A DNA stretch of 64,000 nt from Parcubacteria group bacterium GW2011_GWC1_36_108 (GTDB lineage Bacteria > Patescibacteriota > Minisyncoccia > Moranbacterales > GWC2-37-73): the NCBI GenBank assembly GCA_000991245.1, contig LBRD01000003.1:6734-70733 (forward strand). The letters are read 5' to 3'. This document shows, one piece after another, positions 408 through 63,352 of this stretch. The notes under the pieces are model-generated. The model saw only the letters and a program-made list of their open reading frames with translations, was not told where the DNA came from and did not search any database. Positions within the stretch are counted from its first letter, which is position 1; every line of letters begins with the position of its first letter. The translations under genes and the position numbers were made by a program.

Positions 408-413
408 TGGATA

Positions 414-499
414 ATTTCAAATTAAAAATTAAAAATATCAAATAAATTAAAAACAAATTAAAAATTAAAAATATCAAATAAATTTTAAATTACTAAATT
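414..499. repeat. AT-rich word array (AATTTCAAATTAAAAATTAAAAATATCAAATAAATT), 30-nt unit duplicated in tandem (419-448, 455-484)
   Basis: Direct reading. An inverted partner lies at 880-911 on the other side of the four-helix-bundle gene. A near-identical copy in reverse orientation lies at about 20675-20717. Confidence 0.7.
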
Positions 500-865
500 T
501 CAATTTTGTTTTGTCTTTGTAATTATTGCTGAAAATATTAGCGTAAGTTCTTGGCATTCCCGCCATAATTCTCTAGACTCGTTACTTACTTCCGAGTCTG
601 CAACAGCAATCATTCTGAGCCAATGCTTGGTCTCCTTGCTTTCTTTTTTGCAAATGCCTAATTTGTGGATAAAGTCTTTTCGAGATTCTGCACCGTCAGC
701 TTCCATATAATTTGCGCCAATACTTGTTCCGCTTCTTACAATTTGACTGATCAGTGGTTTTGTTACTTCGCTTTTGGAAATACATTTAGAAAATTTAATA
801 ATTTTTTCTCCAAAAATTGCTGTACGCTCCTCCAAGTCAAATTTTATTGGTTTTTCATTTGTCAT
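500..865 (-). CDS. four-helix-bundle protein (23S rRNA intervening-sequence protein family)
   Basis: 121 aa. Family-typical pattern IVRSGTSIGANYMEA...SRKDFIHKLGICKKESKETKHWL. Confidence 0.8.
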   Translation of the reverse strand: MTNEKPIKFDLEERTAIFGEKIIKFSKCISKSEVTKPLISQIVRSGTSIGANYMEADGAESRKDFIHKLGICKKESKETKHWLRMIAVADSEVSNESRELWRECQELTLIFSAIITKTKQN

Positions 866-879
866 TTTTTTGGACTTTT

Positions 880-911
880 ATTTGAAATTTGATATTTGAA
901 ATTTGATATTC
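880..911. repeat. tandem 14-mer ATTTGAAATTTGAT x2, inverted relative to array 414-499
   Basis: Direct reading. Confidence 0.65.
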
Positions 912-916
912 TAATA

Positions 917-2377
917 CTAGTATTCTTTGACGATGTTTATACCGGAATAGTAGTAGCTGAGGATGCGGGTCCATTGCCAAGAGTGGTCACTGGCAAGAAC
1001 TCTGGCTCCATTGGCTGAAAGTCCAACCATATGATTGCCAGCGCTAGGATTGGAGATTGCTCCATATGGATCTGCTACTGATTGCAGATATGGATGATTT
1101 GAAAGTCCCCAAGCTTCTTCGGCACTTTTTGTTCGACCGTCAGTGTTGCTGCAATATGCACCCAAAACAATGTCGCTGCCATATTTCATTATAATCCCGT
1201 TGGTTTTTTGCGCTGCATCTGGAATAAAAGAATGTGTCAGTTCATAATCATATCCGTTGTAAATTTGATTAACAGGACTGGCAATCAAATCGAAACCAGC
1301 CATATCCCATTTGGTGGCATATTCAACCCACCAACGAGCATATGAGCGAGCGGCGACCATCATTGTTTTTGCCAAATGCTCAATTCCACCGGTACTCATT
1401 TCTCCATAGCCCCAAAGGTATAATTCCAAAGGCAATTCGTTGATTACCCAAACTCTGCGGCAAGCATTTTCCGGATCCCAAGCTGGGAAAGTTGCATCTT
1501 GATACAAACTGCAATTTGCATTTCCATCATTTGGAAGATTAGGATCAAGACTGTGCTGAATTTTAATCTTGCCTCTATATTGATCATATCCTGATCCTGA
1601 ATCGCCATCATAAAGAAGTGGCCTGTTAACATCAAAAATCATATCCGAATTGTTTCCGTCAACTGCATCAAAACAAATTTTATCCCCAACATTAGCGTTG
1701 GCCAAAATCAAAGGATCTGAATTGTATGCATTTAAAACTCCATCTCCTGCATATGAAACTCTGACATTTTGTCCAATTGCAATTGAAGGAGCAACAACGG
1801 TTGCTGCGCAATTTGTCACGCGGAAAGCCTTGTTGGCTGTTATTTTGAACGGATTGGCAGCAAGATCGATGGTATTTGAACTCCAAAGTCCGACTTTGAT
1901 TTCTGGTCCTCGGTTGGTAGTAACATTATCAATGTCAGCCATAAAAACTTTGTATCGATTGTATCCGTCTTTGTATGCACTTGAGCCATAATTTTTGTAA
2001 TTGTCATATTCCTTCTTGTCATATTTTTTGTATTTGGAATATTTTTTCACAGGCACGTATTTTTCCTTGTAAGTTTTGTATTTTTTGTATTCCTTAAGAA
2101 GCCCAGCATATTTTTGATTTGCGGCTGGATTTTTTTTGTACAATCTGTAATTGTCGTAAGCTTTTTTGTATCTCAGTCTTTCCTCAGTATTCTTAAAGCC
2201 GTATTTTGCTTTTGCTTTCTTGTATTTTGAGTAATCTTTCTTTTTTTCGTATTTACTGTATAAAGGATATTTTTCATAGTAATTAGCATCGTCAGACAAA
2301 GCGGCATCAGCCTTAAAGGTTGGTGTTAACAAGAAAGAGAGGATAATTACTACTAATACTATTTTTATTTTTGACAT
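917..2377 (-). CDS. SpoIID/LytB-domain protein with Lys/Tyr-rich N-terminal region
   Basis: Signal-like N-terminus MSKIKIVLVVIILSFLL. About 110 aa of K/Y-rich low complexity. C-terminal SpoIID-like motifs (MVAARSYARWW, YCSNTDGRT, NHMVGLSANGA, ILSYYYSG). Confidence 0.7.
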   Translation of the reverse strand: MSKIKIVLVVIILSFLLTPTFKADAALSDDANYYEKYPLYSKYEKKKDYSKYKKAKAKYGFKNTEERLRYKKAYDNYRLYKKNPAANQKYAGLLKEYKKYKTYKEKYVPVKKYSKYKKYDKKEYDNYKNYGSSAYKDGYNRYKVFMADIDNVTTNRGPEIKVGLWSSNTIDLAANPFKITANKAFRVTNCAATVVAPSIAIGQNVRVSYAGDGVLNAYNSDPLILANANVGDKICFDAVDGNNSDMIFDVNRPLLYDGDSGSGYDQYRGKIKIQHSLDPNLPNDGNANCSLYQDATFPAWDPENACRRVWVINELPLELYLWGYGEMSTGGIEHLAKTMMVAARSYARWWVEYATKWDMAGFDLIASPVNQIYNGYDYELTHSFIPDAAQKTNGIIMKYGSDIVLGAYCSNTDGRTKSAEEAWGLSNHPYLQSVADPYGAISNPSAGNHMVGLSANGARVLASDHSWQWTRILSYYYSGINIVKEY

Positions 2378-2408
2378 TATCTTTTATTTTTAAATTTAAA
2401 ATTGCAAC

Positions 2409-2441
2409 AAAAACTGCCACAATACAATTGTAGCAGTTTTC
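2409..2441 (-). terminator. rho-independent terminator-like hairpin
   Basis: CTGCCACAAT-aca-ATTGTAGCAG (9/10 bp), flanked by an A-run and a T-run, downstream of minus gene 2570..3202. Confidence 0.55.
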
Positions 2442-2466
2442 CCAGCTTCTTCCAAGTTTATTTTTT

Positions 2467-2541
2467 TCAGAAGTTACGCATTTCGAAACATTTCTTTTTT
2501 GGCCAATTGTTGGCGACAGCGACTCTTTGAGCTTTTGGATA
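2467..2541 (-). mobile_element. truncated copy of TIR element D (reverse orientation)
   Basis: tcagaagttacgcatttcgaaacatttcttttttggccaattgttggcgacagcgactctttgag is the reverse complement of 49172-49237. Confidence 0.7.
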
Positions 2542-2569
2542 CTCGCCCCGTCAAATTGTTCACAGATTT

Positions 2570-3202
2570 TTATTTAAATTTCTTTAAAAGTTTGCCATAT
2601 TTGCTTGATGGGTAATAGCAGTTTGGATTCGGTGTTTCGTCTGGGTCAAGACAACATTCCATATCCATATGTTTCTTTTTGCCCTTGTCACTTTTTTGAG
2701 GTTTGTCGTTTTTATTACTGCAAACTTTTTTGCCATCAGCATTTCTTTTAAAAATATAAGGTTCTGGCGCTTTTTTAATTGAAGGTGGTGCGGGAGTAAT
2801 TTTTTTTGTGTTAATATTTTCTTTGGGTTTGGGAATATCTTTTTTTGGAATTGTTTTTTCTGGGGATGCTATTGTTGGTGGTGTTACTGGTGTAATAATT
2901 TGAGTTTCTTGTGATTGATTTTCTTGTTCAGGTTCAGGCTGAGATTTTTTTTCATCATCAATGGTCGCGACAGGCGTGTTTTCAACTGGAATTTCTTTTT
3001 GCATATTTATGGCTGTTAAAAAAAACCCATTGATTGTCGATTCATTTATAAATTCAAGAAATGGTATAGAAACAGGCTTATCTTCTGAAACCTCAATATT
3101 TTGTGCCAGCAAAACTTTTGTTGGCAAGAAAACAATGAAAGACCCCAAAAAAATAAGTGGTAAAATTAGTGCTTGTTTTTTGATGTAAGATGTAGTCTTC
3201 AT
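2570..3202 (-). CDS. secreted or membrane-anchored Pro/Lys-rich hypothetical protein
   Basis: The track ORF starts at a TTG (3208); the first ATG is at 3202. N-terminal hydrophobic segment, P/K/E-rich middle, Cys-rich C-terminus. Confidence 0.55.
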   Translation of the reverse strand: MKTTSYIKKQALILPLIFLGSFIVFLPTKVLLAQNIEVSEDKPVSIPFLEFINESTINGFFLTAINMQKEIPVENTPVATIDDEKKSQPEPEQENQSQETQIITPVTPPTIASPEKTIPKKDIPKPKENINTKKITPAPPSIKKAPEPYIFKRNADGKKVCSNKNDKPQKSDKGKKKHMDMECCLDPDETPNPNCYYPSSKYGKLLKKFK

Positions 3203-3206
3203 AAAC

Positions 3207-3291
3207 AAAAGTTTTAAAGTTTTTAAAGTTATAAAGTTTTTAAAGTAAATTTCACACCTTTACCTTATGAACATTACAAACTTTACGAACA
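3207..3291. repeat. palindromic 9-bp-period array (GTTTTTAAA/GTTATAAAG words, then the inverted CTTATGAAC...TTTACGAAC)
   Basis: Direct reading. Confidence 0.65.
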
Positions 3292-3383
3292 AATTAAAGA
3301 TTTAGCTCACCACAACTTCGGCTATGTTATAATTCATCCTCGTTTGTCTTGAAGGTAATACCAATAAAATTAGAAAATAGTTC

Positions 3384-3418
3384 AAAAAACTGCCACCCTA
3401 TTGGGCGGCAGTTTTTTT
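3384..3418 (-). terminator. rho-independent terminator (bidirectional shape)
   Basis: CTGCCACCC-tatt-GGGCGGCAG between an A-run and a T-run, just downstream of minus gene 3435..3863. Confidence 0.7.
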
Positions 3419-3434
3419 GTTTTTGCTATATTTT

Positions 3435-3863
3435 TTATTGTTGTGCTTTTTGAGCTTGCTTCAAGGCTTTTGCTGCGAGTCTGGCAGCTTTTTTGGCTTC
3501 TTTGGCTGCGATTCTTTCTGCTTTGATTTTTTGTCTTTCAGCAATTTTAGCTTCTTTTGCTAGTCTTTTTGCTTCTTGTTTTTTCAAACGCTCAGCTTTT
3601 TTGATTTGCTGTGCTAATCTTTTTTCTTCCTGCTTTTTCAAAAGAGCGGCTTTTTTTGCAATTTGCGCTAGTCTTTTTGCTTCTTGTTTGGCTTTGATTG
3701 CTGCCAATCTTTCTGCTTGGCGTGCTTTGTTTGCTGCGAGTCGTTGTTGTTTTTTTGCTTGCGTGGTTGTTTCGGTTGTTGTTGTCGTTTCGTTTGCGCT
3801 AACAAACGTCACTGGGAAAGCAAATGCAACCATAAGGGCAATTGCCACGAGTTTTTTCTTCAT
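3435..3863 (-). CDS. secreted Lys/Ala/Glu-rich coiled-coil repeat protein
   Basis: Start moved to MKKKLVAIALMVAFAFPVTFVSA (signal-peptide-like). Reiterated KRLAQ/AKEAK motifs. The upstream extension in the track has no support. Confidence 0.6.
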   Translation of the reverse strand: MKKKLVAIALMVAFAFPVTFVSANETTTTTETTTQAKKQQRLAANKARQAERLAAIKAKQEAKRLAQIAKKAALLKKQEEKRLAQQIKKAERLKKQEAKRLAKEAKIAERQKIKAERIAAKEAKKAARLAAKALKQAQKAQQ

Positions 3864-4058
3864 TGTTTTTATTTTTAATAAATTACATCTGTTATTATAC
3901 AGCTTTGAAGCGAGAGCCACAAGGGAGTTGTGCACACCCGTCCGCATCGTCACGCGAGCAAGCTCGTTTGCCAGGGTCACATAAAATTTTTTAAATATTG
4001 TCTATAAATCAAATTTGCGCTATACTGGATAGGTAAATATTGAATAAATCAAACAATT

Positions 4059-5000
4059 ATGGAAGGTCAAAAACCGTTTATCTCAGTTGTCGTGCCTTTG
4101 TATAATGAAGAAGGAAATGTGAGGGAATTACACAAGCGTATTTTAGATGCGTGTGAAAAACTGGGAAAACCATTTGAAATTATCTTTATTGATGACGGTT
4201 CTAAGGATGAGACAATCAAAAATGCCCAAGGCTTGACTCCTCTTACTTTAATCAAATTTCGCAAAAATTTTGGACAAACCGCAGCTTTTGATGCTGGTAT
4301 TAAGCAAGCGCAGGGTGAGATTGTGATCACAATGGATGGAGATTTGCAAAATGATCCTGCTGACATCGGGCTGCTGTTATCCAAAATGGAAGAAGGATTC
4401 GATGTTGTTTCGGGTTGGCGTTTCAAGCGAAAAGATTCGTTGAGCAAAAAAATATTTTCACGTACTGCCAATTTGCTGCGAAAAATTCTGATTCAGGACA
4501 CGATTCACGATAGCGGTTGTTCTCTGAAAGCGTATAAACGAAATTGTTTCGAAGACGTTGATCTTTTTGGAGAGATGCATCGTTTTATGCCGGCATTGCT
4601 GGAACTTCAAGGGTATAAAATTGGTGAAGTGAAAGTGAATCATTATCCTCGCGTGCATGGCGTGACCAAATATAATTGGAAACGTGGGATGAAGGGTTTT
4701 GTGGATATGATTTCGATTTGGTTTTGGCGCAAATATTCCAACAGGCCGCTGCATCTTTTTGGTGGAACCGGCATCGTTGTTTCATTTTTGGGGACATTGG
4801 TTCTTGTTTGGATGGTGGTTGAGAAAATTTTCTTTGGCGCATCACTTTCAGAAAAAATATGGCCTTTGGTGGGAATCTTTTTGGTTCTCGTTGGCATTCA
4901 ACTTTTCGTGTTCGGACTTTTGGCCGATATTATGCTTAAGAATTATTACAAAGGACAAAAGAGGATGAATTACAATATCAAAGAAATTAGTCAAAGCTAA
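4059..5000 (+). CDS. GT2 polyprenol-phosphate glycosyltransferase (GtrB/ArnC-like)
   Basis: VVVPLYNEE...IFIDDGSKD...MDGDLQNDP, plus two C-terminal TM helices. Confidence 0.85.
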   Translation: MEGQKPFISVVVPLYNEEGNVRELHKRILDACEKLGKPFEIIFIDDGSKDETIKNAQGLTPLTLIKFRKNFGQTAAFDAGIKQAQGEIVITMDGDLQNDPADIGLLLSKMEEGFDVVSGWRFKRKDSLSKKIFSRTANLLRKILIQDTIHDSGCSLKAYKRNCFEDVDLFGEMHRFMPALLELQGYKIGEVKVNHYPRVHGVTKYNWKRGMKGFVDMISIWFWRKYSNRPLHLFGGTGIVVSFLGTLVLVWMVVEKIFFGASLSEKIWPLVGIFLVLVGIQLFVFGLLADIMLKNYYKGQKRMNYNIKEISQS

Positions 5001-5008
5001 TTTCTTAT

Positions 5009-5093
5009 TGTCATTCCCGTGAAAACGGGAATCCAGGACTGAGCCTAACTTGCGCGCAAACCTGGATCCCGGATCTGCTGTCCGGGACGACAC
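5009..5093. mobile_element. MITE-like hairpin element, family A copy 1
   Basis: GTCATTCCCGTGAAAACGGGAATCCAGG...CCTGGATCCCGGATCTGCTGTCCGGGACGAC. Three nested hairpins, with GTCAT / (G)ACGAC termini. Confidence 0.7.
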
Positions 5094-5106
5094 GAGTACA
5101 TGTCGA

Positions 5107-5175
5107 TTTCTTAACGCTCATCACTCGTTTTTTGCCTACGTACTTCATATGGTGCAAAGGGATGCGGGATACAAG
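5107..5175 (+). repeat. mosaic repeat: module C plus tail
   Basis: 5107-5156 matches 6677-6726 (50 nt, 2 mismatches). The tail ggtgcaaagggatgcgggataca matches 9446-9476. Confidence 0.75.
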
Positions 5176-5203
5176 ATATATAATTAGTATAATATTTTAA
5201 ATT

Positions 5204-6529
5204 ATGAAAATTGGAGTTATTGGAACTGGATATGTGGGTAGTGTGACAGGAGCTTGTTTTGCGGAAATGGGGAACACTGTTATTTGCGTGGACAATGATC
5301 AAAAAAAAGTTGATCAGTTTTCTTCTGGCAAAGTTCCACTTCACGAAAAAGGTTTGGATGAATTGGTTTCTCGAAATTTGAAAAACAAAACTTTGACATT
5401 CACGACTGATCTTGAAGATACTTTGAAAAAATCTGACATTATTTTTATCGCTGTTGGGACACCTCCAAATGAAGATGGAAGCGCCGACCTTTCTCACGTG
5501 CTTGGCGTGGCAACCTCAATCGGGCAAATGATGGATCATAAACTTATCATCGTGGACAAATCAACTGTGCCGGTTGGAACTGCTGAAAAAGTTTCCAAAA
5601 ATATCGCTAAAGAGCTTAAGGATAGAGGGGTCGAGATTCCTTTTTCCGTGGTTAGTAATCCCGAGTTTTTGGCGCAAGGAACTGCTGTCAAAGATTTCTT
5701 GGAACCGAGTCGTATTGTTATTGGCGCAGATGATCCAAAAGTAATTGAAACGATGCGCGAACTGTATGAACCTTTTATGCGTCGTGAAGGACGTTTCTTT
5801 TCAATGGATGCAAAAACAGCCGAGATTGTGAAATATGCTTCAAACTGTTTCTTGGCTGCCAAAATTTCTGTGAACAATGAGTTGGCAAACATTTGCTCAA
5901 AGGCAGGAGCTGATTTTGACAATGTGCGCAAAGCGATGGGCGCCGATCCGCGCATTGGAGAACCTTTTATGTATGCGGGTCCCGGTTTTGGTGGATCTTG
6001 TTTTCCAAAAGATGTGAAAGCACTTGTCAAAACAGCCAAGGATTTTGGATATGACGCTGAAATGTTGAAACAAACACTGGGAACAAACGACAAGCAAAAA
6101 TTTGTGTTGTCTCAAATGGTTATTGATGAGCTTGGGGAGGATTTGAAAAACAAAGTTTTTGGTGTTTGGGGATTGGCTTTCAAAGCGGGAACTGATGATA
6201 TGCGCGAATCTTCAGCGCTTACTATTATCAGTGAACTCATCAAAAGAGGAGCCAAAATTCAAGCGCACGATCCAGAAGCAATGAAAATGGCGCAGCGCGA
6301 GGAATATTTTGGCGAAAATTCAAGCATTACATATTTTGAAAATAAATATGATGCACTTAAGGAAGCGGATGCGATGCTTGTTATTACTGAATGGAAAGAA
6401 TTTCGCACACCAGATTTTGATGAGATTAAAAAACTTTTGAAAACTCCTATGATTTTTGATGGCAGGCTTTTGTATGAACCCAAGAAAATGAAAGAAATGG
6501 GATTTGATTATAAATCGATAGGAAGATAA
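5204..6529 (+). CDS. ugd: UDP-glucose 6-dehydrogenase family protein
   Basis: MKIGVIGTGYVGSVTGACFAEMG Rossmann N-terminus, GGSCFPKD catalytic-Cys motif, 441 aa. Confidence 0.85.
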   Translation: MKIGVIGTGYVGSVTGACFAEMGNTVICVDNDQKKVDQFSSGKVPLHEKGLDELVSRNLKNKTLTFTTDLEDTLKKSDIIFIAVGTPPNEDGSADLSHVLGVATSIGQMMDHKLIIVDKSTVPVGTAEKVSKNIAKELKDRGVEIPFSVVSNPEFLAQGTAVKDFLEPSRIVIGADDPKVIETMRELYEPFMRREGRFFSMDAKTAEIVKYASNCFLAAKISVNNELANICSKAGADFDNVRKAMGADPRIGEPFMYAGPGFGGSCFPKDVKALVKTAKDFGYDAEMLKQTLGTNDKQKFVLSQMVIDELGEDLKNKVFGVWGLAFKAGTDDMRESSALTIISELIKRGAKIQAHDPEAMKMAQREEYFGENSSITYFENKYDALKEADAMLVITEWKEFRTPDFDEIKKLLKTPMIFDGRLLYEPKKMKEMGFDYKSIGR

Positions 6530-6726
6530 ACTCATTTCCACATTTCTTTTTCCCGCAAAAAGAAACCTGGAGGAAAGAAAAGCTCGCACCTGATGAAGAT
6601 ACTGTGGCAAAAACTTCACTCTTCACTAAAATTTCTAACCGCCTCCGTCATTTTTGAAAATGACTCCGCGAAGAAATTTCTTAACGCTCATCACTCGTTT
6701 TTCGCCTATGTACTTCATATGGTGCA
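6530..6726 (+). repeat. mosaic repeat: module B (6530-6632), linker, module C (6677-6726)
   Basis: Module B is about 103 nt and nearly identical to 9341-9443. It contains the hairpin TTTCTTTTT-cccgc-AAAAAGAAA and starts 1 nt after the ugd stop. Confidence 0.8.
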
Positions 6727-6823
6727 GATAGGCTCAAAAAAATACAAACAGTTGCAGAATTTGAATGCAAATAAAAAAGACTTAGCGGGTTTTCTCGCTA
6801 AGCCTTTTGTTTATGTTAGGTCA

Positions 6824-7111
6824 CTAAGTCCATACGATTGAGTGACCTGGGTATATTTTTTGAATTTGTTTGATAAAATCCTCCTTTGAAATCGGAACGC
6901 AGAAGCGTTTGATTTTATCTATACCTCCAGAATAAAGAAGTGAAAATCCTGGAATATCAAACAGCGAAGCTTCGTTATGTTTCGTTGAAACATAAAGAAG
7001 AGGCGATCGTTTTGAGACCACAAAATCGTAGTCTTTTTGAAGTAGCGTTTTTTCTGTTGCTGTATCGGAAGCTTCTTTGATAATAATTGTTTTGCTCCTC
7101 CCGTCCTTCAT
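6824..7111 (-). CDS. hypothetical protein
   Basis: Start moved to the ATG preceded by AGGAGGAGGATT (strong SD). 95 aa. Confidence 0.5.
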   Translation of the reverse strand: MKDGRSKTIIIKEASDTATEKTLLQKDYDFVVSKRSPLLYVSTKHNEASLFDIPGFSLLYSGGIDKIKRFCVPISKEDFIKQIQKIYPGHSIVWT

Positions 7112-7121
7112 AATCCTCCTC

Positions 7122-7490
7122 CTATTTTGTGAGATTTGAAGATACAATCATACACACTGCGTTTACGTGCGTGGAAGATACATCAAGGGCAATTTCCTTT
7201 ACTCGCTTGTGTGTTCTGAGTACAAGACTACACGCTCTTTCCTGAACCTTTTTGTCAGAGAGAGCTTTTACGCGCAGAGCCTGCATCATAATTCGTTGAG
7301 CGTGGTCGTCGTCTATCTCTTTCAAGTCGTATTCCTTAAAAGAGGCGATATGTATACTTATGCCAAAGTTAAGTTCAGGATTATCATTCAAAAATTCACC
7401 AACAATTGCGGACACGGATTTAACCGCGGAATCCTTGTTGAAATTTTTGAGTTTTAGCTCCGCTGCTGCGTCAATAGTTGTTCTTTTCAT
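7122..7490 (-). CDS. hypothetical protein
   Basis: Start moved to the ATG preceded by TAGGGGGTAATACG (SD-like). 122 aa. Lies 10 nt upstream of 6824..7111, so probably forms an operon with it. Confidence 0.5.
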   Translation of the reverse strand: MKRTTIDAAAELKLKNFNKDSAVKSVSAIVGEFLNDNPELNFGISIHIASFKEYDLKEIDDDHAQRIMMQALRVKALSDKKVQERACSLVLRTHKRVKEIALDVSSTHVNAVCMIVSSNLTK

Positions 7491-7657
7491 CGTATTACCC
7501 CCTAAGTTTTTAAAGTGCATGGGCACTTTTTGGTATTTCAGCTATTATACACCTAAACGGGCAACGTGTCAATATGGGCGCCATTTTGCCCGCCTGCAAC
7601 GCTGTAGCACTGCGGGCAGGCCCTTGAGAAAGCGGAGAAAAGGTGGTAGGATGTAAT

Positions 7658-7788
7658 AGTTCATAAAGTTTTTAAAGTTCTTAAGGTTTATAAAGTAAAA
7701 TGCAAAAAGTTGTAAGGTTTTTAAGGTTTGTAAAGTTTATAATGTAAAATACAAAAAACTCCAAAGTTTATAAAGTTCATAAGGTAAA
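7658..7788 (+). repeat. 9-bp-period array, three sub-arrays each ending in GTAAAATRCAAAAA
   Basis: gttcataaa gtttttaaa gttcttaag gtttataaa ... read directly. Immediately upstream of four-helix-bundle gene 7794. Confidence 0.75.
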
Positions 7789-7793
7789 ACAAA

Positions 7794-8144
7794 ATGGCGA
7801 AATTTGAGACATTTGAAGATATTGTTGCTTGGCAAAAATCAAGAATTCTTGTAACTGATATTTATCAAGTATTCAGAAGCAGCAAGGACTATTCTTTTCG
7901 AGATCAAATACAGAGAGCTGCAGTTTCAATTATGAATAATATCGCCGAAGGTTATGAAAGAAAAGGAAATAAGGAATTTGCAAAGTTTTTATATATAGCA
8001 AAAGGTTCTTGCGCAGAGGTTCGTTCAATGCTTTATCTCGCTCTAGATTTAAGATATATTAATAGGGAAGAATTTAATAACTTTTCTGAACAATCACTTG
8101 TAATTTCTAAGATGTTATCAAGTCTCATAAAAACATTGTGTTAG
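7794..8144 (+). CDS. four-helix-bundle protein (23S rRNA intervening-sequence protein family)
   Basis: 116 aa. Motifs QIQRAAVSIMNNIAEGYER and FLYIAKGSCAEVRSMLYLA. Confidence 0.8.
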   Translation: MAKFETFEDIVAWQKSRILVTDIYQVFRSSKDYSFRDQIQRAAVSIMNNIAEGYERKGNKEFAKFLYIAKGSCAEVRSMLYLALDLRYINREEFNNFSEQSLVISKMLSSLIKTLC

Positions 8145-8146
8145 GG

Positions 8147-8166
8147 ACTTTAAAAACTTTAAGAAC
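8147..8166 (-). repeat. short inverted 9-mer array (ACTTTAAAA ACTTTAAGA)
   Basis: Reverse complement of the words in 7658-7788. It closes an inverted pair around gene 7794..8144. Confidence 0.55.
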
Positions 8167-8172
8167 TATACT

Positions 8173-15550: not shown

Positions 15551-17344
15551 ATGAATAATCCAATAGATAAAGAGTCTTTGAAGTCTTTGGTTGGGAGCAG
15601 ATTTTTTGTTGGAGCAATCTTGATTGCGATTTTGGCAGTTGGTGTTTTTTTGCGCGCATATAACTTTTCTGACTGGCAACATTTTGAACTTGATCAATCT
15701 CGCGATGCAAAGGTTATAGATTTGGCGGTGGAAAACGGAGTGGGGGATCTTCCTCTTTTGGGACCAAAGGCAGCGGGGTCATTTTTGCGTCTCGGTCCAA
15801 TATTTTATTATTTCGGTTATGTGAGCGCAAAAGTATTTGGTAACACGCCTTCTGGGATTGCTGTCATTTCACTCATTTTTTCTTGTTTAACGCTGCCCCT
15901 GTTTTATTTGTTTGTCAGAAGATTTTTTTCAAAAAAAATAGGACTTATGCTTCTAGGAGTTTTTTCCGTTTCAATTTTTCTTGTTCTGTACTCACGTTTT
16001 TCATGGAATCCTAATAATTTGCCATTTTTCATTTTGGGTGCACTTTATGGTCTCCTTCGTGCAACGGATGAGAATGAAAAAAGAAAAGGCTGGTGGTTGA
16101 TTGTAGGAGTTGTTTCTTTGACTATTGCAACTCAACTTCACTTTGTGGCTTTTTTGGGCTTGCCGATGATTGCCGTCGCGTATCTTCTAATAAAAAGACC
16201 TTTAATAAACTGGAAATATTGGCTGGCTTCTATCGCATGCATTGTTTTTTTGTATATTCCTTCGATAATAAATGATTTCAAGACAGGTGGTTCAAATATT
16301 ATTGAATTTGAAAAAGTGTTCGCAAAAACATCCACCAAGGGCGAGCATACTCTTGTTGAAAAAATAATAAGAAACATCGACAAGAGTTCGGCTGGATATG
16401 TCTTGCTGATAAGTGGAAATTCACAGGCCGAATTGCCAAAGGTGAAGATTCCAAGAATACGACCAATTTTTACATGTGATGAGGATTGCAAAAAAGGTGT
16501 CCCAATGGGAATTTTTTCACTATTCTTTGCTATTATTGGAAGTGCACTTTTGGGTTGGAATATTTTCAAAACAAAAGAAACTTCGCGCAGAGATTTTTTG
16601 ATCATCGTGGCTATTTGGGTATTGGTTACGCTGGCACTTTTTACTCCGATTTCATATGATATGGCTCCAAGATTCTTTCTGCTGGTTGCTCCGATCCCAT
16701 TTGTTTATTTGGGGCTTATTTTGGATTTTTTTGAAAAAAGAAAAGCCAGTGTTCTTTCTTGGGTTTTCGTTTTGATTCTCTTGGCTTCAAATGGCTGGCT
16801 TGTTAAAGAAAGATTTAGCGAACTTGCAAATGCTCCCGTTAAAGAATTTGAGATATCTTCGGACAAAATTCTCAAAGAAAACGAACGAGTAACCCTTGAG
16901 CAACAGCTTCTGATTACCAAATATATTGAAAGTATTTATAATCAAAACAACTTTCCAGTTTATGTTAATAGTGAGGCATTTTATCGCAGATCATTTTTGT
17001 ATCATCTGGAACAACGTTTGATAGTTCGCGATGATTTTCGCAATACCAGAAGTGTTTATTCTGAGGGAAATTATTTTTTGGTGTATCCATCTTCTTCAAC
17101 TGTGGAAAAAATTTATGAAAATTATCAGGATAAATATGATATTGCTGAAATCAAGGAATTTGGCACGCTTAGAGTTGTGCGCTTGCTTCCAAAATTGCAA
17201 ATGATAACAGCGGTGCGTCAGGAATTTGCTCCAGCAAGAAAACCAATCAGCGCTCCTGGCGTGCCAGTGCGTTGTCGTTGGAATGAAATTTTTTCCCAAT
17301 GTAATAGTGACGGAACGGAGGCGGAGGATGAAAGTAGTTTATAA
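15551..17344 (+). CDS. GT-C family membrane glycosyltransferase (ArnT-like)
   Basis: FLRAYNFSDWQHFELDQSRD...LLGPKA...GPIFYY, paralogous to the N-terminus of 10433..13147. Confidence 0.7.
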   Translation: MNNPIDKESLKSLVGSRFFVGAILIAILAVGVFLRAYNFSDWQHFELDQSRDAKVIDLAVENGVGDLPLLGPKAAGSFLRLGPIFYYFGYVSAKVFGNTPSGIAVISLIFSCLTLPLFYLFVRRFFSKKIGLMLLGVFSVSIFLVLYSRFSWNPNNLPFFILGALYGLLRATDENEKRKGWWLIVGVVSLTIATQLHFVAFLGLPMIAVAYLLIKRPLINWKYWLASIACIVFLYIPSIINDFKTGGSNIIEFEKVFAKTSTKGEHTLVEKIIRNIDKSSAGYVLLISGNSQAELPKVKIPRIRPIFTCDEDCKKGVPMGIFSLFFAIIGSALLGWNIFKTKETSRRDFLIIVAIWVLVTLALFTPISYDMAPRFFLLVAPIPFVYLGLILDFFEKRKASVLSWVFVLILLASNGWLVKERFSELANAPVKEFEISSDKILKENERVTLEQQLLITKYIESIYNQNNFPVYVNSEAFYRRSFLYHLEQRLIVRDDFRNTRSVYSEGNYFLVYPSSSTVEKIYENYQDKYDIAEIKEFGTLRVVRLLPKLQMITAVRQEFAPARKPISAPGVPVRCRWNEIFSQCNSDGTEAEDESSL

Positions 17345-17392
17345 AGTTTGTAAAGTTATAAAGTTCATAAAGTTTATAAAGTTCATAAAGTT
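17337..17392 (+). repeat. 9-bp-period array (GTTTATAAA/GTTCATAAA x6)
   Basis: Direct reading. It generates the fake KFIKFIKFIK N-terminus of track ORF 17226. Confidence 0.75.
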
Positions 17393-17399
17393 AAAAAAT

Positions 17400-20589: not shown

Positions 20590-20717
20590 TGAAAAATTTT
20601 AAATGTCAAAATTAAAATTTCAAATAAATGACTAAATATTTAATTTATTAAAAAATATTTTTATCATTAAGGAATTTGAAATTTATTTGATATTTGTAAT
20701 TTTTAATTTGAAATTAT
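20590..20717. repeat. palindromic AT-rich word array related to 414-499
   Basis: The reverse complement of about 20675-20717 is nearly identical to 414-448. Confidence 0.65.
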
Positions 20718-21305
20718 TTATGCTATCTGGGATTTTATAATGCTAAATATTTCTTCTTTATCTTTATTGCCGTCTACTATTTTTAAATTCCAGACAGTTG
20801 CTGCTTGGTCGAGAAGCGCTTTTTTCTTGTTTAAATATTCCAATCCTTGATCTGGCACGCGGTCACGTTGCATTATTTTTTCTGGAGAGGTGTTGAGATA
20901 AAAAGCAAAATCGGGAGTAGGAATTAGGTGGTAGGAATTAGGTGGTAGGGGGGAATTTTGAAGGTATAAAATATTAATAATGTTGTCGTAGAAATAGCGG
21001 TCGGAAAGAATGTAGTCGTAGCCGGAGTTACGTAGCTTGTTACGTAGCAAAACAAAACGCAGCAGGTCAATGTGCAGCGCAACTTTGCGCAGTTGGATTT
21101 GCAGCCAACCAGCCTTTGTTACACTTTTTGTTTCCTGTTGACCGTTGATTGTTGATTGTTGATTGTTAAGAACATTGGCGATTGAAAACTGGACAGCGTG
21201 AAAATAAAAAACTTTCTTGCCTTGTGATTCAAGATAATTTTTCAATAAATTTATTTGGGTCGATTTGCCGCTGCCGTCTAAACCTGAGATTGAAATTATT
21301 TTCAC
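20718..21305 (-). CDS. thymidylate-kinase-like nucleotide kinase carrying two in-frame tandem-repeat insertions
   Basis: GTG start. P-loop GLDGSGKST and an LSDRYFYD (DRY) motif. Repeats at 20917-20953 and 21144-21167. Confidence 0.6.
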   Translation of the reverse strand: MKIISISGLDGSGKSTQINLLKNYLESQGKKVFYFHAVQFSIANVLNNQQSTINGQQETKSVTKAGWLQIQLRKVALHIDLLRFVLLRNKLRNSGYDYILSDRYFYDNIINILYLQNSPLPPNSYHLIPTPDFAFYLNTSPEKIMQRDRVPDQGLEYLNKKKALLDQAATVWNLKIVDGNKDKEEIFSIIKSQIA

Positions 21306-21306
21306 A

Positions 21307-21389
21307 AAAGTTTATAAGGTTCATAAAGTTCTTAAGGTTCATAAAGTGTTTTTGTATTTACTTTATAAACTTTATAACTTTATAACTTT
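21307..21389. repeat. palindromic 9-bp-period array with loop GTTTTTGTATTT
   Basis: Forward words 21307-21346, inverted words 21360-21389. Confidence 0.75.
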
Positions 21390-24249: not shown

Positions 24250-24259
24250 AAATAGTGTT

Positions 24260-29256: not shown

Positions 29257-29342
29257 AAAAAGTTTTTAAGGTTCTTAAGGTTTTTAAAGTATAAGCAGGT
29301 GTATGCCTTATGAACTTTATAACTTTATGAACTTTATAACTT
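29257..29342. repeat. palindromic 9-bp-period array
   Basis: Forward words 29257-29290, inverted words 29307-29342. Confidence 0.75.
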
Positions 29343-32461: not shown

Positions 32462-34165
32462 ATGCCAATCATTAAACAAATTTTGGATCAAATTTTTAAA
32501 AATCCAACAAAGCTGTATCTCATTTTGGCCAATGTTGTTTTGGTTTCTTTTGCTATTTGGTTTTCAAATGTTGGACTTTTGCCGTTTAAAAACTTTGGAG
32601 ACTTTGCAGTTTTTGCAGTGTTGACTTTGATTTTGGGATTGTATCGTCCTGGTTGGACATTTCTTTTTTTTGTGGGAGCATTGGCCTTGAAGAATATTAA
32701 TCTTGTGCCAAAGGAGATTGGTTTGTCACTCAGACCATATCAATTTTTTGGGTTCATCACGATAATCGCGCTCTTGGTTCAGACTTTGTCAAAACGTCTT
32801 GCATTTTCATTGCCAAAATTTGCTTGGTATGACGCAATGCCTGTTGTTTTTGCTGTGGCTGGTTTTTTGAGCGCCTTGGGTGCAACAAACAAAGGGATGA
32901 GTTTCAAACAATCAATAATCGCTCTTACATTTGTCGCTTTGTATTTTTTAACCAGGATTTATGTGCAATCTTTTGATGATGCGAAACGCGTTCTGCCATT
33001 TTTTCTGAGCAGTGGATTGGTAGTGATGATATATTCTATTTGGCAAAATATCAGATTTTTAACTGGTGGAAATTCTTTTGAGGTAATGCCCGGCAGACCC
33101 AATGGAACTTTTACCGAGGCTGACTGGCTAGGAATATTTGTCACTTTTATTTTAGCTGTTTTATTAACAATATTGTATGCGCTTAATAGAAATTATATAA
33201 AAGATAGTGCTGGTCAAATTTCCAATTTCCAATTTCCAATTTCCAATAAATTCTTAAATTTACAAATTTTTAAAAAAGTAAGTGCTTATGTTTTTATTAC
33301 ACTTACGTTAATAACACTCATTCTGACTGTTTCTCGTAGTGCTTGGGTGGGGGCGGTGTTTGTGGCGGTTGTTTTTCTTAAATTTGTTCTCCTTGGAAAT
33401 TATGCGGAGCTTGGAGAAGGAGATCGAAGTAAATGGAAAAGATTGCTAAACATTTTGAAAATGCAAAAGTGGCAATGGAAAAAAGCCGGAACTCAGCTGC
33501 TGTTTGTTTTGCTTGCACTTGCTGTTGCACTTGCAATTGCAATGCCTCTGACACGTTTTCAATTGGCAAGCAGAGCAGCGAGCACAGCAGGATTTCAGAA
33601 AATAACGGTTGCGTGTCATAGTAGCGCTGACAATATTGTACCGCAAAAAATTCTCAGTGTTGATGAATTGGGAGGCTATGGTTGCAGACACATTAATCTG
33701 GAAGATATTGAAAAAGAAAAAGCTCTTGGCAATATGGTTATTGAAGTTGACAGGCCTGATCCAAATGTGAACATTCGCGCTGAAATTTATCAAAAATCTT
33801 GGCAGCAAATAAAATCACATCCTGTTTTTGGAATTGGGTGGGGAAGCATCTCGCAAGTTTTAGGCACAGACGAGCGTGGTGCGGGACTTAATGCGAGCAA
33901 TATCTTTTTGGAAGTCTGGCTGGGAAGTGGACTGCTTGGAATATTGTCGTTTGTGGTATTGCTTGGATATATTCTTGTATCATCAATCGGTGTGTTTTTG
34001 GATAATGGTAATAAGAATAAAAATGGTGCAGCACTTCTTTTTGTGATGGCCGGCTGGGCGGCTGTTGTTTTTCCAAATCTTTTTAATTCCGGAATATTCT
34101 TAGGATTCGTCTGGGTGTATTTAGGAGTAGCGGTGAGCTTATTACGAAATCATAAAAACATATAA
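32462..34165 (+). CDS. O-antigen ligase/polymerase-like membrane protein (Wzy_C-type)
   Basis: Polytopic, with LTVSRSAWVGAVFVAV and a large loop. In-frame AATTTCC repeat at 33215-33271. Confidence 0.7.
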   Translation: MPIIKQILDQIFKNPTKLYLILANVVLVSFAIWFSNVGLLPFKNFGDFAVFAVLTLILGLYRPGWTFLFFVGALALKNINLVPKEIGLSLRPYQFFGFITIIALLVQTLSKRLAFSLPKFAWYDAMPVVFAVAGFLSALGATNKGMSFKQSIIALTFVALYFLTRIYVQSFDDAKRVLPFFLSSGLVVMIYSIWQNIRFLTGGNSFEVMPGRPNGTFTEADWLGIFVTFILAVLLTILYALNRNYIKDSAGQISNFQFPISNKFLNLQIFKKVSAYVFITLTLITLILTVSRSAWVGAVFVAVVFLKFVLLGNYAELGEGDRSKWKRLLNILKMQKWQWKKAGTQLLFVLLALAVALAIAMPLTRFQLASRAASTAGFQKITVACHSSADNIVPQKILSVDELGGYGCRHINLEDIEKEKALGNMVIEVDRPDPNVNIRAEIYQKSWQQIKSHPVFGIGWGSISQVLGTDERGAGLNASNIFLEVWLGSGLLGILSFVVLLGYILVSSIGVFLDNGNKNKNGAALLFVMAGWAAVVFPNLFNSGIFLGFVWVYLGVAVSLLRNHKNI

Positions 34166-37575: not shown

Positions 37576-37594
37576 GTATTACAAAATTAATAAT

Positions 37595-38934: not shown

Positions 38935-38987
38935 TGCGTTTCAAACTCATTTCCACATTTCTTTTTCCCGTAAGCGGAATATAAATA

Positions 38988-42489: not shown

Positions 42490-43110
42490 ATGAAAGAAAT
42501 GTATCAACCATCGCAAGCTGAAATAAAAAAAGCAGAAGATGTCATGACTGAAGAACAAAAACTTGAGAGCATGACGAGAGAAAATGCTGTTCACGCAGGG
42601 GAAGCATCTTTCAGTGATTATGATGAAACAAAAAAAATTAACCCAGAAAAAACCCATAAAATTGAGATAGAACTGCAAGCCACAATTTATAAGGAATTCA
42701 ATGATCGAGTTAAAGAATTAGTTAAATCATATACAGAAAGCCTATCTGCCCTAAAAAGAGAAGCTAACTATGAAGACGACGAGCAGCTTGATGAGATAGA
42801 TAAAAAAATAAATGAATTAACAAAAAAATTATTTGAAGACTTTGGAGAACAGTATATGCGCTTAAGCAAGGTTGTAATAGACACCACAATAACAATATCA
42901 GATTTTGTAATTCATAAAAAAGACATGTTATTACAGCAAGAAGAAGATCAACAAAAAAGACAGGAGTTAGAAGCCAGCATACTTAAAAGCGAAAATGCAA
43001 AAATACAAAGAGCGGAAGCTGTCATAGCAAATCTTGAAAAATATATAAACGATGTTAAAAACAATTTTGAAAAAGGTGCTGAAGAATTAATGAAAGAAAT
43101 AAAGAAATAA
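42490..43110 (+). CDS. cassette 1 ORF: acidic coiled-coil protein, unknown function
   Basis: 206 aa, E/K-rich. Bracketed by inverted repeats 42376-42430 and 43117-43175. Confidence 0.6.
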   Translation: MKEMYQPSQAEIKKAEDVMTEEQKLESMTRENAVHAGEASFSDYDETKKINPEKTHKIEIELQATIYKEFNDRVKELVKSYTESLSALKREANYEDDEQLDEIDKKINELTKKLFEDFGEQYMRLSKVVIDTTITISDFVIHKKDMLLQQEEDQQKRQELEASILKSENAKIQRAEAVIANLEKYINDVKNNFEKGAEELMKEIKK

Positions 43111-49866: not shown

Positions 49867-49870
49867 AATA

Positions 49871-49906
49871 GTTCGTAAGGTTATAAGGTTTGTAAAGTTC
49901 ATAAAG
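49871..49906 (+). repeat. 9-bp-period array (4 words) abutting the next start codon
   Basis: gttcgtaag gttataag gtttgtaaa gttcataaa gta-ATG. Confidence 0.65.
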
Positions 49907-49908
49907 TA

Positions 49909-63251: not shown

Positions 63252-63347
63252 AAGGTATAGTTGTAAAGTTCATAAAGTTTGTAAGGTTCATAAAGTATTT
63301 TTGTAATTCCACTTTATAAACTTTTGACTTTATAACTTTATAAACTT
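63246..63347. repeat. palindromic 9-bp-period array with loop ATTTTTGTAATTCC
   Basis: Forward words 63246-63296, inverted words 63311-63347. Confidence 0.75.
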
Positions 63348-63352
63348 TTTTA

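What the first reader, a model, noticed from the sequence alone, without database searches (positions are those of the whole stretch)
414..8166. Both four-helix-bundle (23S-IVS-type) genes sit in the loop of inverted word arrays
Gene 7794..8144 has forward 9-mer arrays immediately upstream (7658-7788) and the inverted words immediately downstream (8147-8166). Gene 500..865 is flanked by AATTTCAAA-type arrays at 414-499 and their inverse at 880-911. The same arrays occur elsewhere as gene-less palindromes. This protein family was first described inside 23S rRNA intervening sequences. There the ORF sits in the loop of a long stem that is excised by RNase III. Here the same stem-plus-ORF architecture appears outside rRNA. 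That suggests an IVS-like mobile or processed unit, with the gene-less palindromes as its empty derivatives.
Basis: partly seen in the sequence, partly recalled or inferred. Interest (0 to 1): 0.65.

Follow-up and report, generated by a model that had tools for sequence, protein, structure and literature searches.

The report
Four-helix genes bracketed by word arrays
Both small four-helix-bundle genes sit between a run of short repeated DNA words and the mirror-image run. About 150 relatives from several bacterial phyla show the same layout, so the stem-plus-gene design known from ribosomal RNA intervening sequences looks like a general, apparently undescribed trait of this protein family.

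Summary
Genes 500..865 (-) and 7794..8144 (+) are PF05635/TIGR02436 four-helix-bundle genes. Each is tightly bracketed by tandem 7-9-nt words upstream and their reverse complements downstream. Gene-less palindromes of the same words lie at five other spacers.

The layout is a rule of the gene family, not a quirk of this genome. In 78 loci of the 7794-type subfamily, 77% of the genes have flanking inverted repeats, against 3% of 680 neighbouring genes. In 70 loci of the 500-type subfamily the figures are 57% and 3.6%.

The word tracks the protein subfamily: AAAGT upstream and ACTTT downstream for one, CAAAT/CTAAT upstream and ATTTG/ATTAG downstream for the other. Further subfamilies, including those in cultured Riemerella, Nostoc and Anabaena, use other words. 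Polarity is fixed, and gene-less palindromes keep the same arm order (19:0).

The published Coxiella 23S intervening sequence has strain-variable tandem heptamers before its ORF, with the RNase III cut at the first repeat.

My best reading is an IVS-type stem-ORF cassette living in operon spacers, whose words probably dock its own pentameric protein. Mobility, RNase III processing and protein-word binding are not shown. A G·U wobble test gave no RNA-specific signal.

The parts
866..916 (-). Upstream (5') arm of unit 1. On the sense (-) strand it carries CAAAT-type words (AATATCAAATTTCAAAT x2) and ends 1 nt before the ATG at 865.
   Evidence: period 7/14, 100% matches at 879-910; polarity as in 70 relatives.
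500..865 (-). Four-helix-bundle gene 1 (121 aa), PF05635/TIGR02436, subfamily A2.
   Evidence: 2RLD, E 8e-20.
411..499 (-). Downstream (3') arm of unit 1. On the sense strand it carries ATTTG-type words. It ends 3 nt before the start codon (407) of the next gene on the - strand.
   Evidence: I1-I6, I18-I19; closing stem about 413-438 with 874-889.
7624..7652 (+). Promoter-like site (TTGAGA-17-TAGGAT, with TG) just before the left arm. The divergent perfect consensus promoter is at 7572-7544 (-).
   Evidence: consensus match only.
7656..7788 (+). Upstream arm of unit 2: three blocks of AAAGT-type 9-mers (7656-7696, 7705-7745, 7763-7785), each followed by an AAAAYRCAAAA linker. The outer end is ATAGTTC.
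   Evidence: (49-nt triple repeat).
7794..8144 (+). Four-helix-bundle gene 2 (116 aa), PF05635/TIGR02436, subfamily A1. The predicted fold matches 2GSC, 2RLD and DGR Avd.
8141..8169 (+). Downstream arm of unit 2 (ACTTTAAAAACTTTAAGAACTAT). It pairs with 7656-7684 and ends 3 nt before the ATG of the GT4 gene (8173). A strain variant carries two more 9-mers.
   Evidence: (29 nt, 90%).
3208..3290 (.). Gene-less AAAGT/ACTTT palindrome between two - strand genes.
   Evidence: (I13, I22).
20595..20719 (.). Gene-less palindrome of the CAAAT/ATTTG word family (the family of unit 1), between two - strand genes.
   Evidence: (I2, I4, I5).
21307..21389 (.). Gene-less AAAGT/ACTTT palindrome between two - strand genes.
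   Evidence: (z -4 to -5).
29259..29342 (.). Gene-less AAAGT/ACTTT palindrome between two - strand genes.
63246..63348 (.). Gene-less AAAGT/ACTTT palindrome between two - strand genes.
   Evidence: (z -4.4 and -6.9).
17336..17397 (+). Half array: six forward AAAGT words, with no inverse arm, directly before a + strand gene start.
49870..49907 (+). Half array: forward AAGGT/AAAGT words, with no inverse arm, between two + strand genes, directly before the ATG at 49909.

Best explanation
Both genes are typical copies of a family-wide genetic unit. The unit is one PF05635/TIGR02436 four-helix-bundle ORF tightly bracketed by two arrays of 7-9-nt words: sense words upstream and their reverse complements downstream. 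The word is specific to the protein subfamily. It is AAAGT type for gene 7794 and CAAAT/CTAAT type for gene 500.

This is the design of the ORF-bearing intervening sequences of 23S rRNA, which have a terminal stem, tandem heptamers before the ORF and an RNase III cut at the first repeat. Here the unit sits in short spacers between co-directional protein genes instead of in an rRNA helix.

Most likely working:
- The unit is transcribed together with its host operon.
- The two arms pair into a long imperfect duplex that closes off the ORF. That duplex is a substrate for RNase III, so the insert is insulated or cut out of the host transcript.
- The repeated words are docking sites for the unit's own ring-shaped, pentameric protein, by analogy with its homologue Avd in the DGR ribonucleoprotein.
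- Gene-less palindromes and half arrays are ORF-less (decayed or non-autonomous) copies.

Shown here: anatomy, specificity to the family, subfamily-specific words, fixed polarity, distribution across phyla, and unit-number variation.

Inferred: pairing in vivo, RNase III cleavage, protein-word binding, and any mobility.
For: - Family rule. 77% of 78 subfamily-A1 genes have flank complementarity of at least 28, against 3.1% of 680 other genes. For subfamily A2 the figures are 57% of 70 against 3.6% of 363. Small-gene controls give 4.7% and 4.6%. Mann-Whitney p = 9e-33 and 1e-22.
- Words and polarity. Counts per 120 nt: upstream AAGT 4.77 against 0.68 in controls, and downstream ACTT 3.85 against 0.66. 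The opposite orientations are not enriched (0.33 and 0.74). Spacing is 7, 8 or 9 nt.
- Word tracks subfamily, not host. Within single genomes, two subfamilies carry two different words (the window; L033, L051, L059). The same core occurs across Patescibacteria, Bacteroidota, Ignavibacteria and others. Twelve of 14 further divergent members have their own word pairs. Riemerella, Nostoc and Anabaena plasmid copies do too.
- Arms match their own partner better than foreign arms of the same family: median score 34.5 against 23, and the cognate arm is the best of 78 in 13 cases.
- Gene-less palindromes keep the same arm order: 19 against 0. With a gene-sized gap the count is 44 against 1.
- Operon context. 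The genes are co-directional with the upstream gene in 69 of 72 cases and with the downstream gene in 60 of 70. The background rate is 79%. Median spacers are 58 and 54 nt. There is no constant partner gene and no transposase or RT among 141 neighbours.
- The closing stems appear in both the MFE and the centroid folds.
- A real IVS shows the same traits (PMC4990558).
- Unit number differs between strain variants in both arms, as in Coxiella strains.
- The protein fold matches pentameric 2GSC and 2RLD, and Avd inside the DGR RNP. X. campestris S23p is a toroidal homopentamer.
Against: - Mismatches between the arms show no excess of G·U-compatible changes on the sense strand (70 against 68, and 53 against 56). 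Selection on a sense-RNA stem is therefore not visible.
- The arms are only about 85% complementary, and the upstream arm often has more words than can pair (upstream longer in 42 loci, downstream longer in 23; in the window about 14 words against 2-3).
- Fold energies of the whole regions are not clearly better than shuffles.
- There is no sign of recent movement. Look-ups of three exact protein sequences each returned one context. The 7794 unit is conserved at one site in relatives whose GT4 is 66-73% identical.
- Within subfamily A1, the word variant (AAGTT or AAGTC) is only weakly tied to protein similarity (63.7% against 62.4%, p about 0.005).
- None of 160 surveyed loci lies in 23S rRNA.
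- Forward-only arrays also precede unrelated genes (17336, 49870; L186).
Confidence: 0.55

Rival explanations
1. Operator model at the DNA level. The four-helix protein is a sequence-specific DNA-binding regulator. The two arrays are its operators in inverted orientation around its own gene, and the gene-less palindromes and half arrays in front of other genes are further operators of a regulon. No RNA stem or processing is involved.
For: - There is no strand-specific wobble signal in the arms, which is as expected if both DNA strands count equally.
- A conserved core with a variable spacer, like iterated binding sites.
- More words upstream than can pair.
- Half arrays directly before the start codons of other genes.
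- The unit is stable at one site over long times.
Against: - Spacing of 7-9 bp puts successive sites on different faces of a DNA duplex.
- Arms match their own partner in register beyond the shared core, which binding sites alone do not require.
- The strict F-loop-R order of the palindromes (19:0) and the start codon lying inside the arm in many A2 loci fit a hairpin better.
- The only homologue with a known role, Avd, works in an RNA-protein complex.
- The real IVS is an RNA element cut by RNase III.
Confidence: 0.2
2. Active mobile element. The unit is an autonomous transposon-like or retro-element whose ends are the word arrays (sub-terminal repeats). The four-helix protein is its end-binding or mobilising factor. 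Gene-less palindromes are its MITE-like non-autonomous copies, which insert into hairpin loops and spacers.
For: - 57-73% protein identity across distant phyla.
- Many copies and several subfamilies per genome.
- Presence or absence at one orthologous site among relatives.
- ORF-less copies with the same architecture.
- Copies on plasmids, and one inside a cas operon.
- Classical IVSs are sporadic, and Ralph and McClelland proposed that they are mobile.
Against: - No catalytic gene (transposase, integrase or RT) in or next to the unit.
- No target-site duplication was seen.
- Look-ups of three exact protein sequences each returned only one context.
- No hit in 50,697 phage records.
- The 7794 unit is old at its site, with the same right boundary in three lineages.
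Confidence: 0.15
3. Coincidence. The arrays are generic intergenic repeats of this AT-rich genome (REP-like hairpins, terminators or slippage products), and two small genes merely happen to lie between them.
For: - The window is full of other repeat families and word arrays.
- Three other genes also have long-range flank complementarity.
Against: - The same layout recurs around about 150 homologues in unrelated genomes, with a 15- to 25-fold excess over neighbouring genes.
- Arrays of at least three cores: 187 observed against 5 after shuffling.
- The words follow the protein subfamily, not the host.
Confidence: 0.01

Closest known systems
ORF-bearing intervening sequences (IVS) of 23S rRNA (Coxiella burnetii helix 45; Leptospira, Brucella, Haemophilus; PMC4990558)
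   Same: - Same protein family (S23p = PF05635).
- The ORF sits in the loop of a stem made by terminal inverted repeats (28 bp in Coxiella).
- Tandem heptamers (GACAGAT x3-4) lie directly before the ORF, and their number differs between strains.
- Here too, the unit number differs between strain variants.
   Different: - The units here are not in rRNA. They lie in spacers between protein genes, or downstream of an operon promoter.
- The arms are whole arrays of words on both sides.
- The proteins here are strongly conserved (57-92% identity), whereas the Coxiella ORF is decaying and probably not expressed.
- RNase III cleavage is shown for the IVS and not for these units.
Short tandemly repeated repetitive (STRR) heptamers of heterocyst-forming cyanobacteria (known to me from Mazel et al. 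1990; Vioque 1997 title seen)
   Same: - Tandem 7-nt words in intergenic DNA.
- The Nostoc and Anabaena four-helix genes are flanked by exactly such heptamer runs (GGGAAAA/TTTTCCC; AGGTGAC/GTCACCT).
- By the title of Vioque 1997, STRRs also sit inside the RNase P RNA gene.
   Different: - STRRs were described as repeats of unknown function.
- No link to a protein gene, to inverted pairing or to the IVS family turned up in the library searches.
Transcribed palindromic MITEs processed at the RNA level (Neisseria Correia elements, enterobacterial ERIC); from my own knowledge
   Same: - Small imperfect palindromes sit in spacers of co-directional genes and are co-transcribed.
- Their hairpins are cut by RNase III (Correia), with effects on neighbouring mRNAs.
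- This resembles the gene-less palindromes here.
   Different: - Those elements have unique terminal inverted repeats, not arrays of 7-9-nt words.
- No ORF-bearing master copy of this kind is known for them.
Avd, the accessory protein of diversity-generating retroelements
   Same: - Same fold and distant sequence relation (Pfam bAvd E 0.009; NCBIfam Avd hits for relatives; Foldseek 4DWL and 8UB7, TM 0.74-0.78).
- Pentameric ring.
- Works bound to RNA in a ribonucleoprotein.
   Different: - No reverse transcriptase, template repeat or variable repeat is found near these genes.
- Sequence identity is only 12-14%.
- Avd genes are not known to be bracketed by word arrays.
TRAP-type ring proteins that read tandem short words in single-stranded RNA (B. 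subtilis trp RNA-binding attenuation protein); from my own knowledge, a functional analogy only
   Same: A ring oligomer meets a run of short words separated by variable 2-4-nt spacers in a 5' leader. The modal array length here is 4-5 words for a five-subunit ring.
   Different: The fold is unrelated, and no binding data exist for PF05635 proteins.

Membership tests
PF05635 / TIGR02436 four-helix-bundle (23S rRNA IVS protein, 'S23p') family | Sequence match above the curated cut-off | tested here: met
   Pfam scores 60.5 and 123.7 bits against a cut-off of 33.8. TIGR02436 scores 82.2 and 121.6 bits against a cut-off of 24.
PF05635 / TIGR02436 four-helix-bundle (23S rRNA IVS protein, 'S23p') family | Four-helix-bundle fold like 2GSC and 2RLD | tested here: met
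   AF2 model of gene 2 has pLDDT 95.9 and four helices. Foldseek finds 2gsc and 2rld with TM 0.79-0.89. Gene 1 was tested by sequence only (2RLD, E 8e-20).
PF05635 / TIGR02436 four-helix-bundle (23S rRNA IVS protein, 'S23p') family | Homopentameric ring | not testable with these tools
   Inferred from five chains in 2GSC and 2RLD and from Lin et al. 2006 as cited in PMC4990558.
23S rRNA intervening sequence (IVS) | Inserted in a helix (9, 25 or 45) of the 23S rRNA gene | tested here: not met
   The window has no rRNA or any Rfam family and no tRNA. The units lie between protein genes. No 23S motif lies near the 160 relatives.
23S rRNA intervening sequence (IVS) | Terminal inverted repeats that form a stem enclosing the ORF | tested here: met
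   Arms of 29 nt at 90% and 34 nt at 76%. Closing stems appear in the MFE and centroid folds. This is prediction only.
23S rRNA intervening sequence (IVS) | Tandem short repeats before the ORF, variable in number between strains (Coxiella) | tested here: met
   Arrays at 7656-7788 and 866-916. A strain variant differs by whole 9-mers in both arms.
23S rRNA intervening sequence (IVS) | Excision of the stem-loop by RNase III | not testable with these tools
   This needs RNA ends from the organism. The wobble test gave no support for RNA-level selection.
Diversity-generating retroelement (Avd component) | Adjacent reverse transcriptase plus template and variable repeats | tested here: not met
   No RT domain in the called genes within 10 kb of either gene, nor among 141 neighbours of relatives. 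The NCBIfam Avd model is not matched by either window protein.
MITE / transposon with non-autonomous copies | Insertion polymorphism with precise ends, target-site duplication, and a transposase somewhere | tested here: inconclusive
   Presence or absence at one orthologous site, but this is old and compatible with loss. No duplication was seen and no transposase lies nearby. Look-ups of three exact protein sequences each returned a single context.

The most novel reading that the evidence does not exclude
PF05635 proteins are sequence-specific readers of their own word arrays. Together with the ORF-less palindromes they would form an autonomous/non-autonomous family of elements that settle in hairpin loops and operon spacers. 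That single family would account for the ORF-bearing IVSs of 23S rRNA, the cyanobacterial STRR heptamers (including those inside the RNase P RNA gene), and the origin of the DGR accessory protein Avd as a domesticated member.
Probability: 0.25. Interest if true: 0.92.

Novelty: new variant of a known kind. Interest (0 to 1): 0.8.

Why it matters
PF05635/TIGR02436 is a very large family. Each of the two window proteins had more than 6,000 relatives at E <= 1e-5. Structures have been known since 2006, yet no function is known outside DGRs.

A simple, testable rule now attaches a cis element to the gene: every subfamily carries its own 7-9-nt word, forward before the ORF and inverted after it.

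If the rule holds, several things follow:
- It gives a concrete ligand to test for the pentameric ring.
- It recasts the 30-year-old puzzle of rRNA intervening sequences. They may be a special case of a general cassette that also lives in mRNA spacers.
- It offers an explanation for orphan intergenic word arrays and palindromes in Patescibacteria, Bacteroidota and cyanobacteria (STRR).
- It suggests where Avd came from.
- It warns annotators that such arrays break assemblies and can mimic CRISPR association.

Tried and rejected
- Rfam (gathering threshold) and tRNA scans of the window found nothing.
- Whole-region fold z-scores were not significant.
- G·U against A·C mismatch asymmetry, as a test for a sense-RNA stem, showed no asymmetry in either survey.
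- I looked for recent mobility by asking whether three exact protein sequences occur in more than one context. Each occurred in only one.
- An exact look-up of the GT4 neighbour found no variant lacking the gene, only contigs that break inside it.
- The phage collection gave no hit.
- I rejected a third 'gene in a loop', the Rrf2 gene between TAGGTTT and ACCTAAA arrays. [quoted passage not shown]
- Within-subfamily linkage of word variant to protein clade was only weak.
- I searched the 160 related loci for conserved 23S motifs. None lay near the genes.
- Six literature searches for a prior description of the arrays around this family found none, though the library lacks most subscription journals. 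Vioque 1997 could not be read.
- A conserved functional partner among the neighbours was not found.

Full report
**1. What is in the window**

The window is AT-rich (36% G+C). It is from a groundwater Patescibacteria genome. The two proteins are named by NCBI as from Parcubacteria GW2011_GWC1_36_108 and Moranbacteria GW2011_GWC2_37_73, and the same locus is on LBTM01000003.1 of GCA_000990595.1. It holds no rRNA, tRNA or Rfam family.

ORF 500..865 (-) and ORF 7794..8144 (+) both match PF05635 and TIGR02436. They are too diverged to find each other by BLAST, and they are the only copies in the window.

**2. The observation**

Upstream of 7794..8144 lie three blocks of 9-mers of the type TAAAGTTNA (7656-7788). 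Downstream lie the inverse words (8147-8169). Arms 7656-7684 and 8141-8169 are 29 nt long and 90% complementary.

Gene 500..865 has, on its own (-) strand, CAAAT-type words from 916 to 866 before the ATG, and ATTTG-type words from 499 to 411 after the stop. Arm complementarity is 76% over 34 nt, with cores of 10-18 nt at 89-100%.

In both cases the MFE and the centroid folds close the whole gene with this terminal stem. The energy of the whole region is not clearly better than shuffles.

I scored all 60 genes of the window for complementarity between their two flanks. The two genes are joint second and fourth. The other high scorers are three neighbouring genes with a different, non-array kind of flank repeat.

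Gene-less palindromes of the same words lie at 3208-3290, 21307-21389, 29259-29342, 63246-63348 and 20595-20719. Forward-only arrays lie at 17336-17397 and 49870-49907.

**3. Is it a property of this genome or of the gene family?**

I fetched 80 loci from one-genome-per-species collections. They were chosen only by similarity of the encoded protein to gene 7794 (57-73% identity). They come from Patescibacteria, Bacteroidota, Ignavibacteria, Leptospiraceae, Omnitrophota and others.

The same flank score was at least 28 for 77% of the 78 four-helix genes, against 3.1% of 680 other genes in the same loci. Medians were 34.5 and 16. Several of the high 'others' turned out to be further four-helix genes or their immediate neighbours.

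A second, independent set held 80 metagenome loci of the gene-500 subfamily (55-74% identity). It gave 57% against 3.6%. Controls restricted to small genes gave 4.7% and 4.6%.

Neither refuted the idea.

**4. Anatomy of the unit**

In the 7794 subfamily the arms are nearly always tandem words with the core AAAGT upstream and ACTTT downstream.
- Upstream AAGT occurs 4.77 times per 120 nt, against 0.68 in controls.
- Downstream ACTT occurs 3.85 times, against 0.66.
- The opposite orientations are not enriched.
- Spacing is 7, 8 or 9 nt.
- The commonest array length is 4-5 words.

In the 500 subfamily the words are CTAAT/CAAAT upstream and ATTAG/ATTTG downstream. The arm often includes the start codon.

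Other subfamilies have other words:
- ATCCTTT/AAAGGAT, CGTGAAA/TTTCACG, TCGAAA, CGTTAAT and others. Twelve of 14 divergent members have such pairs.
- Cultured organisms: Riemerella CAAGGTT/AACCTTG, Nostoc GGGAAAA/TTTTCCC, Anabaena AGGTGAC/GTCACCT.

Where one genome carries two subfamilies, each keeps its own word (the window; L033, L051, L059). The word therefore follows the protein, not the host.

Arms also match their own partner better than foreign arms with the same core.

Arrays of at least three cores occur 187 times in 857 kb, against 5 after shuffling.

Gene-less palindromes occur in many of these genomes and always in the order forward-loop-inverse: 19 against 0. With a gene-sized gap the count is 44 against 1.

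**5. Context**

The genes are co-directional with the gene upstream in 69 of 72 cases and with the gene downstream in 60 of 70. The background rate is 79%. Median spacers are 58 and 54 nt, which the arrays fill.

The 141 neighbouring genes fall into 173 Pfam families. There is no constant partner and no transposase or reverse transcriptase.

In the window, gene 500 follows this pattern. Gene 7794 sits just downstream of a promoter-like site (7624-7652), and its right arm ends 3 nt before the ATG of a GT4 glycosyltransferase gene.

**6. History at one site**

GT4 orthologues show the same unit directly upstream in relatives with 66% and 73% GT4 identity (L188, L189). The right boundary is the same: ..AACTAT, three bases, then ATG.
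- A relative with 80% identity (L184) has no unit. A different 7-mer array sits there instead.
- A relative with 71% identity (L187) has none.
- A relative with 78% identity (L186) keeps only four forward words.

A close strain variant differs from the window by whole 9-mers in both arms.

The unit is therefore old at this site. It is lost or reduced in some lineages, and its arrays change by unit number. Look-ups of three exact protein sequences each returned one genomic context, so I see no sign of recent movement.

**7. Link to real intervening sequences**

The Coxiella burnetii paper (PMC4990558) describes:
- a 428-nt IVS in helix 45;
- a 28-bp stem made by terminal inverted repeats, with the S23p ORF in the loop;
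- three tandem heptamers (GACAGAT) plus a degenerate fourth directly before the start codon;
- two or three copies depending on the strain;
- the 5' cut at the first repeat.

It also cites the pentameric toroid of the Xanthomonas protein, and the old proposal (Ralph and McClelland 1993) that the IVS is a mobile element whose ORF serves its mobility.

The word-array trait is therefore shared with at least one true IVS. What fails for membership is the defining location. Neither the window nor any of 160 related loci places the gene in 23S rRNA.

**8. The protein**

The AF2 model is a confident four-helix bundle. Its best structural matches are 2GSC and 2RLD, each with five chains. Next come the DGR accessory protein Avd (4DWL) and Avd inside the DGR ribonucleoprotein (8UB7 and related entries).

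Both window proteins are mildly basic (pI 8.8-8.9). The one homologue with a known role acts as a pentamer bound to RNA.

**9. How it most likely works**

Shown:
- a self-contained unit of ORF plus two inverted arrays;
- words specific to the subfamily;
- fixed polarity;
- location in operon spacers;
- ORF-less and half versions;
- unit-number variation;
- wide distribution, with 57-73% protein identity across phyla.

Inferred, by analogy with the IVS: the unit is transcribed with the host genes, the arms pair, and RNase III cuts the duplex. That would make the insert harmless in an rRNA helix or in an mRNA spacer.

Inferred from the subfamily-specific words, the ring protein and Avd: the words are docking sites for the unit's own protein.

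Against an RNA stem under selection:
- mismatches between the arms are no more often G·U-compatible on the sense strand than on the antisense strand (70 against 68, and 53 against 56);
- the arms are only about 85% complementary;
- the upstream arm often has surplus words.

A DNA-level operator model and a transposon/MITE model therefore stay open. Chance is excluded.

**10. Novelty**

Searches of the paper library for the family name, accession numbers, S23p, STRR and heptamer repeats found no description of inverted word arrays around these genes outside rRNA. The library lacks most subscription journals, so an earlier report cannot be excluded.

I file the finding as a new variant of a known kind. 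The gene family and stem-plus-ORF design are those of the IVS. The setting (mRNA spacers), the array arms, the subfamily-specific words and the family-wide rule across phyla are new.

Noticed in passing
window 42376-46560: Three consecutive + strand genes (42490..43110; 43528..44430, DUF4116; 44854..46431, GT2) are each bracketed by a long-range inverted repeat of 25-26 nt at 88-92% (42376/43150, 43358/44556, 44694/46536). About 400 nt of spacer sequence is repeated three times. This is a different, non-array kind of 'gene in a stem'.
   Followed up: partly
window 56929-56962 and 57822-57856: ACCTAAA-type 7-mer arrays lie directly before the start codons of two divergent genes (55706..56926, class-V aminotransferase; 57862..58992, PD-(D/E)XK nuclease). 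The words resemble the 3' end of 16S rRNA (anti-Shine-Dalgarno-like, from my own knowledge). A relative (L184 3970-4000) has GATCCAT x4.5 before the GT4 ATG. Leader word arrays seem common in these genomes.
   Followed up: partly
window 7590-7625: A G+C-rich hairpin-like stretch (GCCCGCCTGCAACGCTGTAGCACTGCGGGCAGGCC) is present in the window and absent from the strain variant L010/L012.
   Followed up: no
window 4985-5098, 40825-40938, 50631-50744, 53810-53851; also 24259-24285 and 50711-50737: A dispersed G+C-richer repeat of about 114 nt (core TGTCATTCCCGTGAAAACGGGAATCCAGG) occurs at the ends of genes. A perfect 27-nt inverted pair (TTGTCATTCCGGACTTGATCCGGAATC) also occurs. It looks like a separate REP/MITE-like family.
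   Followed up: no
window 6530-6633 and 9341-9444 (97%), 38943-38973; 5106-5156 and 6676-6726 (96%): Further near-identical intergenic repeats lie after the UDP-glucose dehydrogenase and GT4 genes.
   Followed up: no
window 2454-2541, 37443-37588, 49102-49238: A stretch of about 80-150 nt is present three times (76 nt at 99% between 2466-2541 and 49163-49238, in inverted orientation). Its nature was not examined.
   Followed up: no
L192 (Anabaena sp. 90 plasmid pANA02, NC_019429.1, 44265-44633): A four-helix unit with GTCACCT heptamer arms sits between cas6 and cas4 of a type I-D CRISPR operon. Such insertions could contribute to the reported statistical association of '23S rRNA IVP' with CRISPR adaptation modules (PMC10910872, figure legend).
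   Followed up: no
L178-L183 (contigs carrying the window's GT4 protein): Six of the ten places shown start 160-246 nt upstream of GT4, which is inside the four-helix gene. Assemblers break in this unit.
   Followed up: no
L038 5814-5995 and 6352-6485: One relative has 25 and 18 AAGT words on the two sides, both in the forward orientation. It is an exception to the inverted rule.
   Followed up: no
window 33217-33247: AATTTCC x4.4 lies inside the long ORF 32462..34165. Either it is a coding repeat, or the ORF is really two genes separated by a word array.
   Followed up: no
window 21348-21359 and 63297-63310 compared with 7697-7709 and 7746-7759: The loops of two gene-less palindromes, read on the - strand (AAATACAAAAAC, TTACAAAAATAC), resemble the linkers between the word blocks upstream of gene 7794 (AAAATGCAAAAAG, AAAATACAAAAAAC). 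This hints that the palindromes have an intrinsic orientation that follows their flanking genes.
   Followed up: partly
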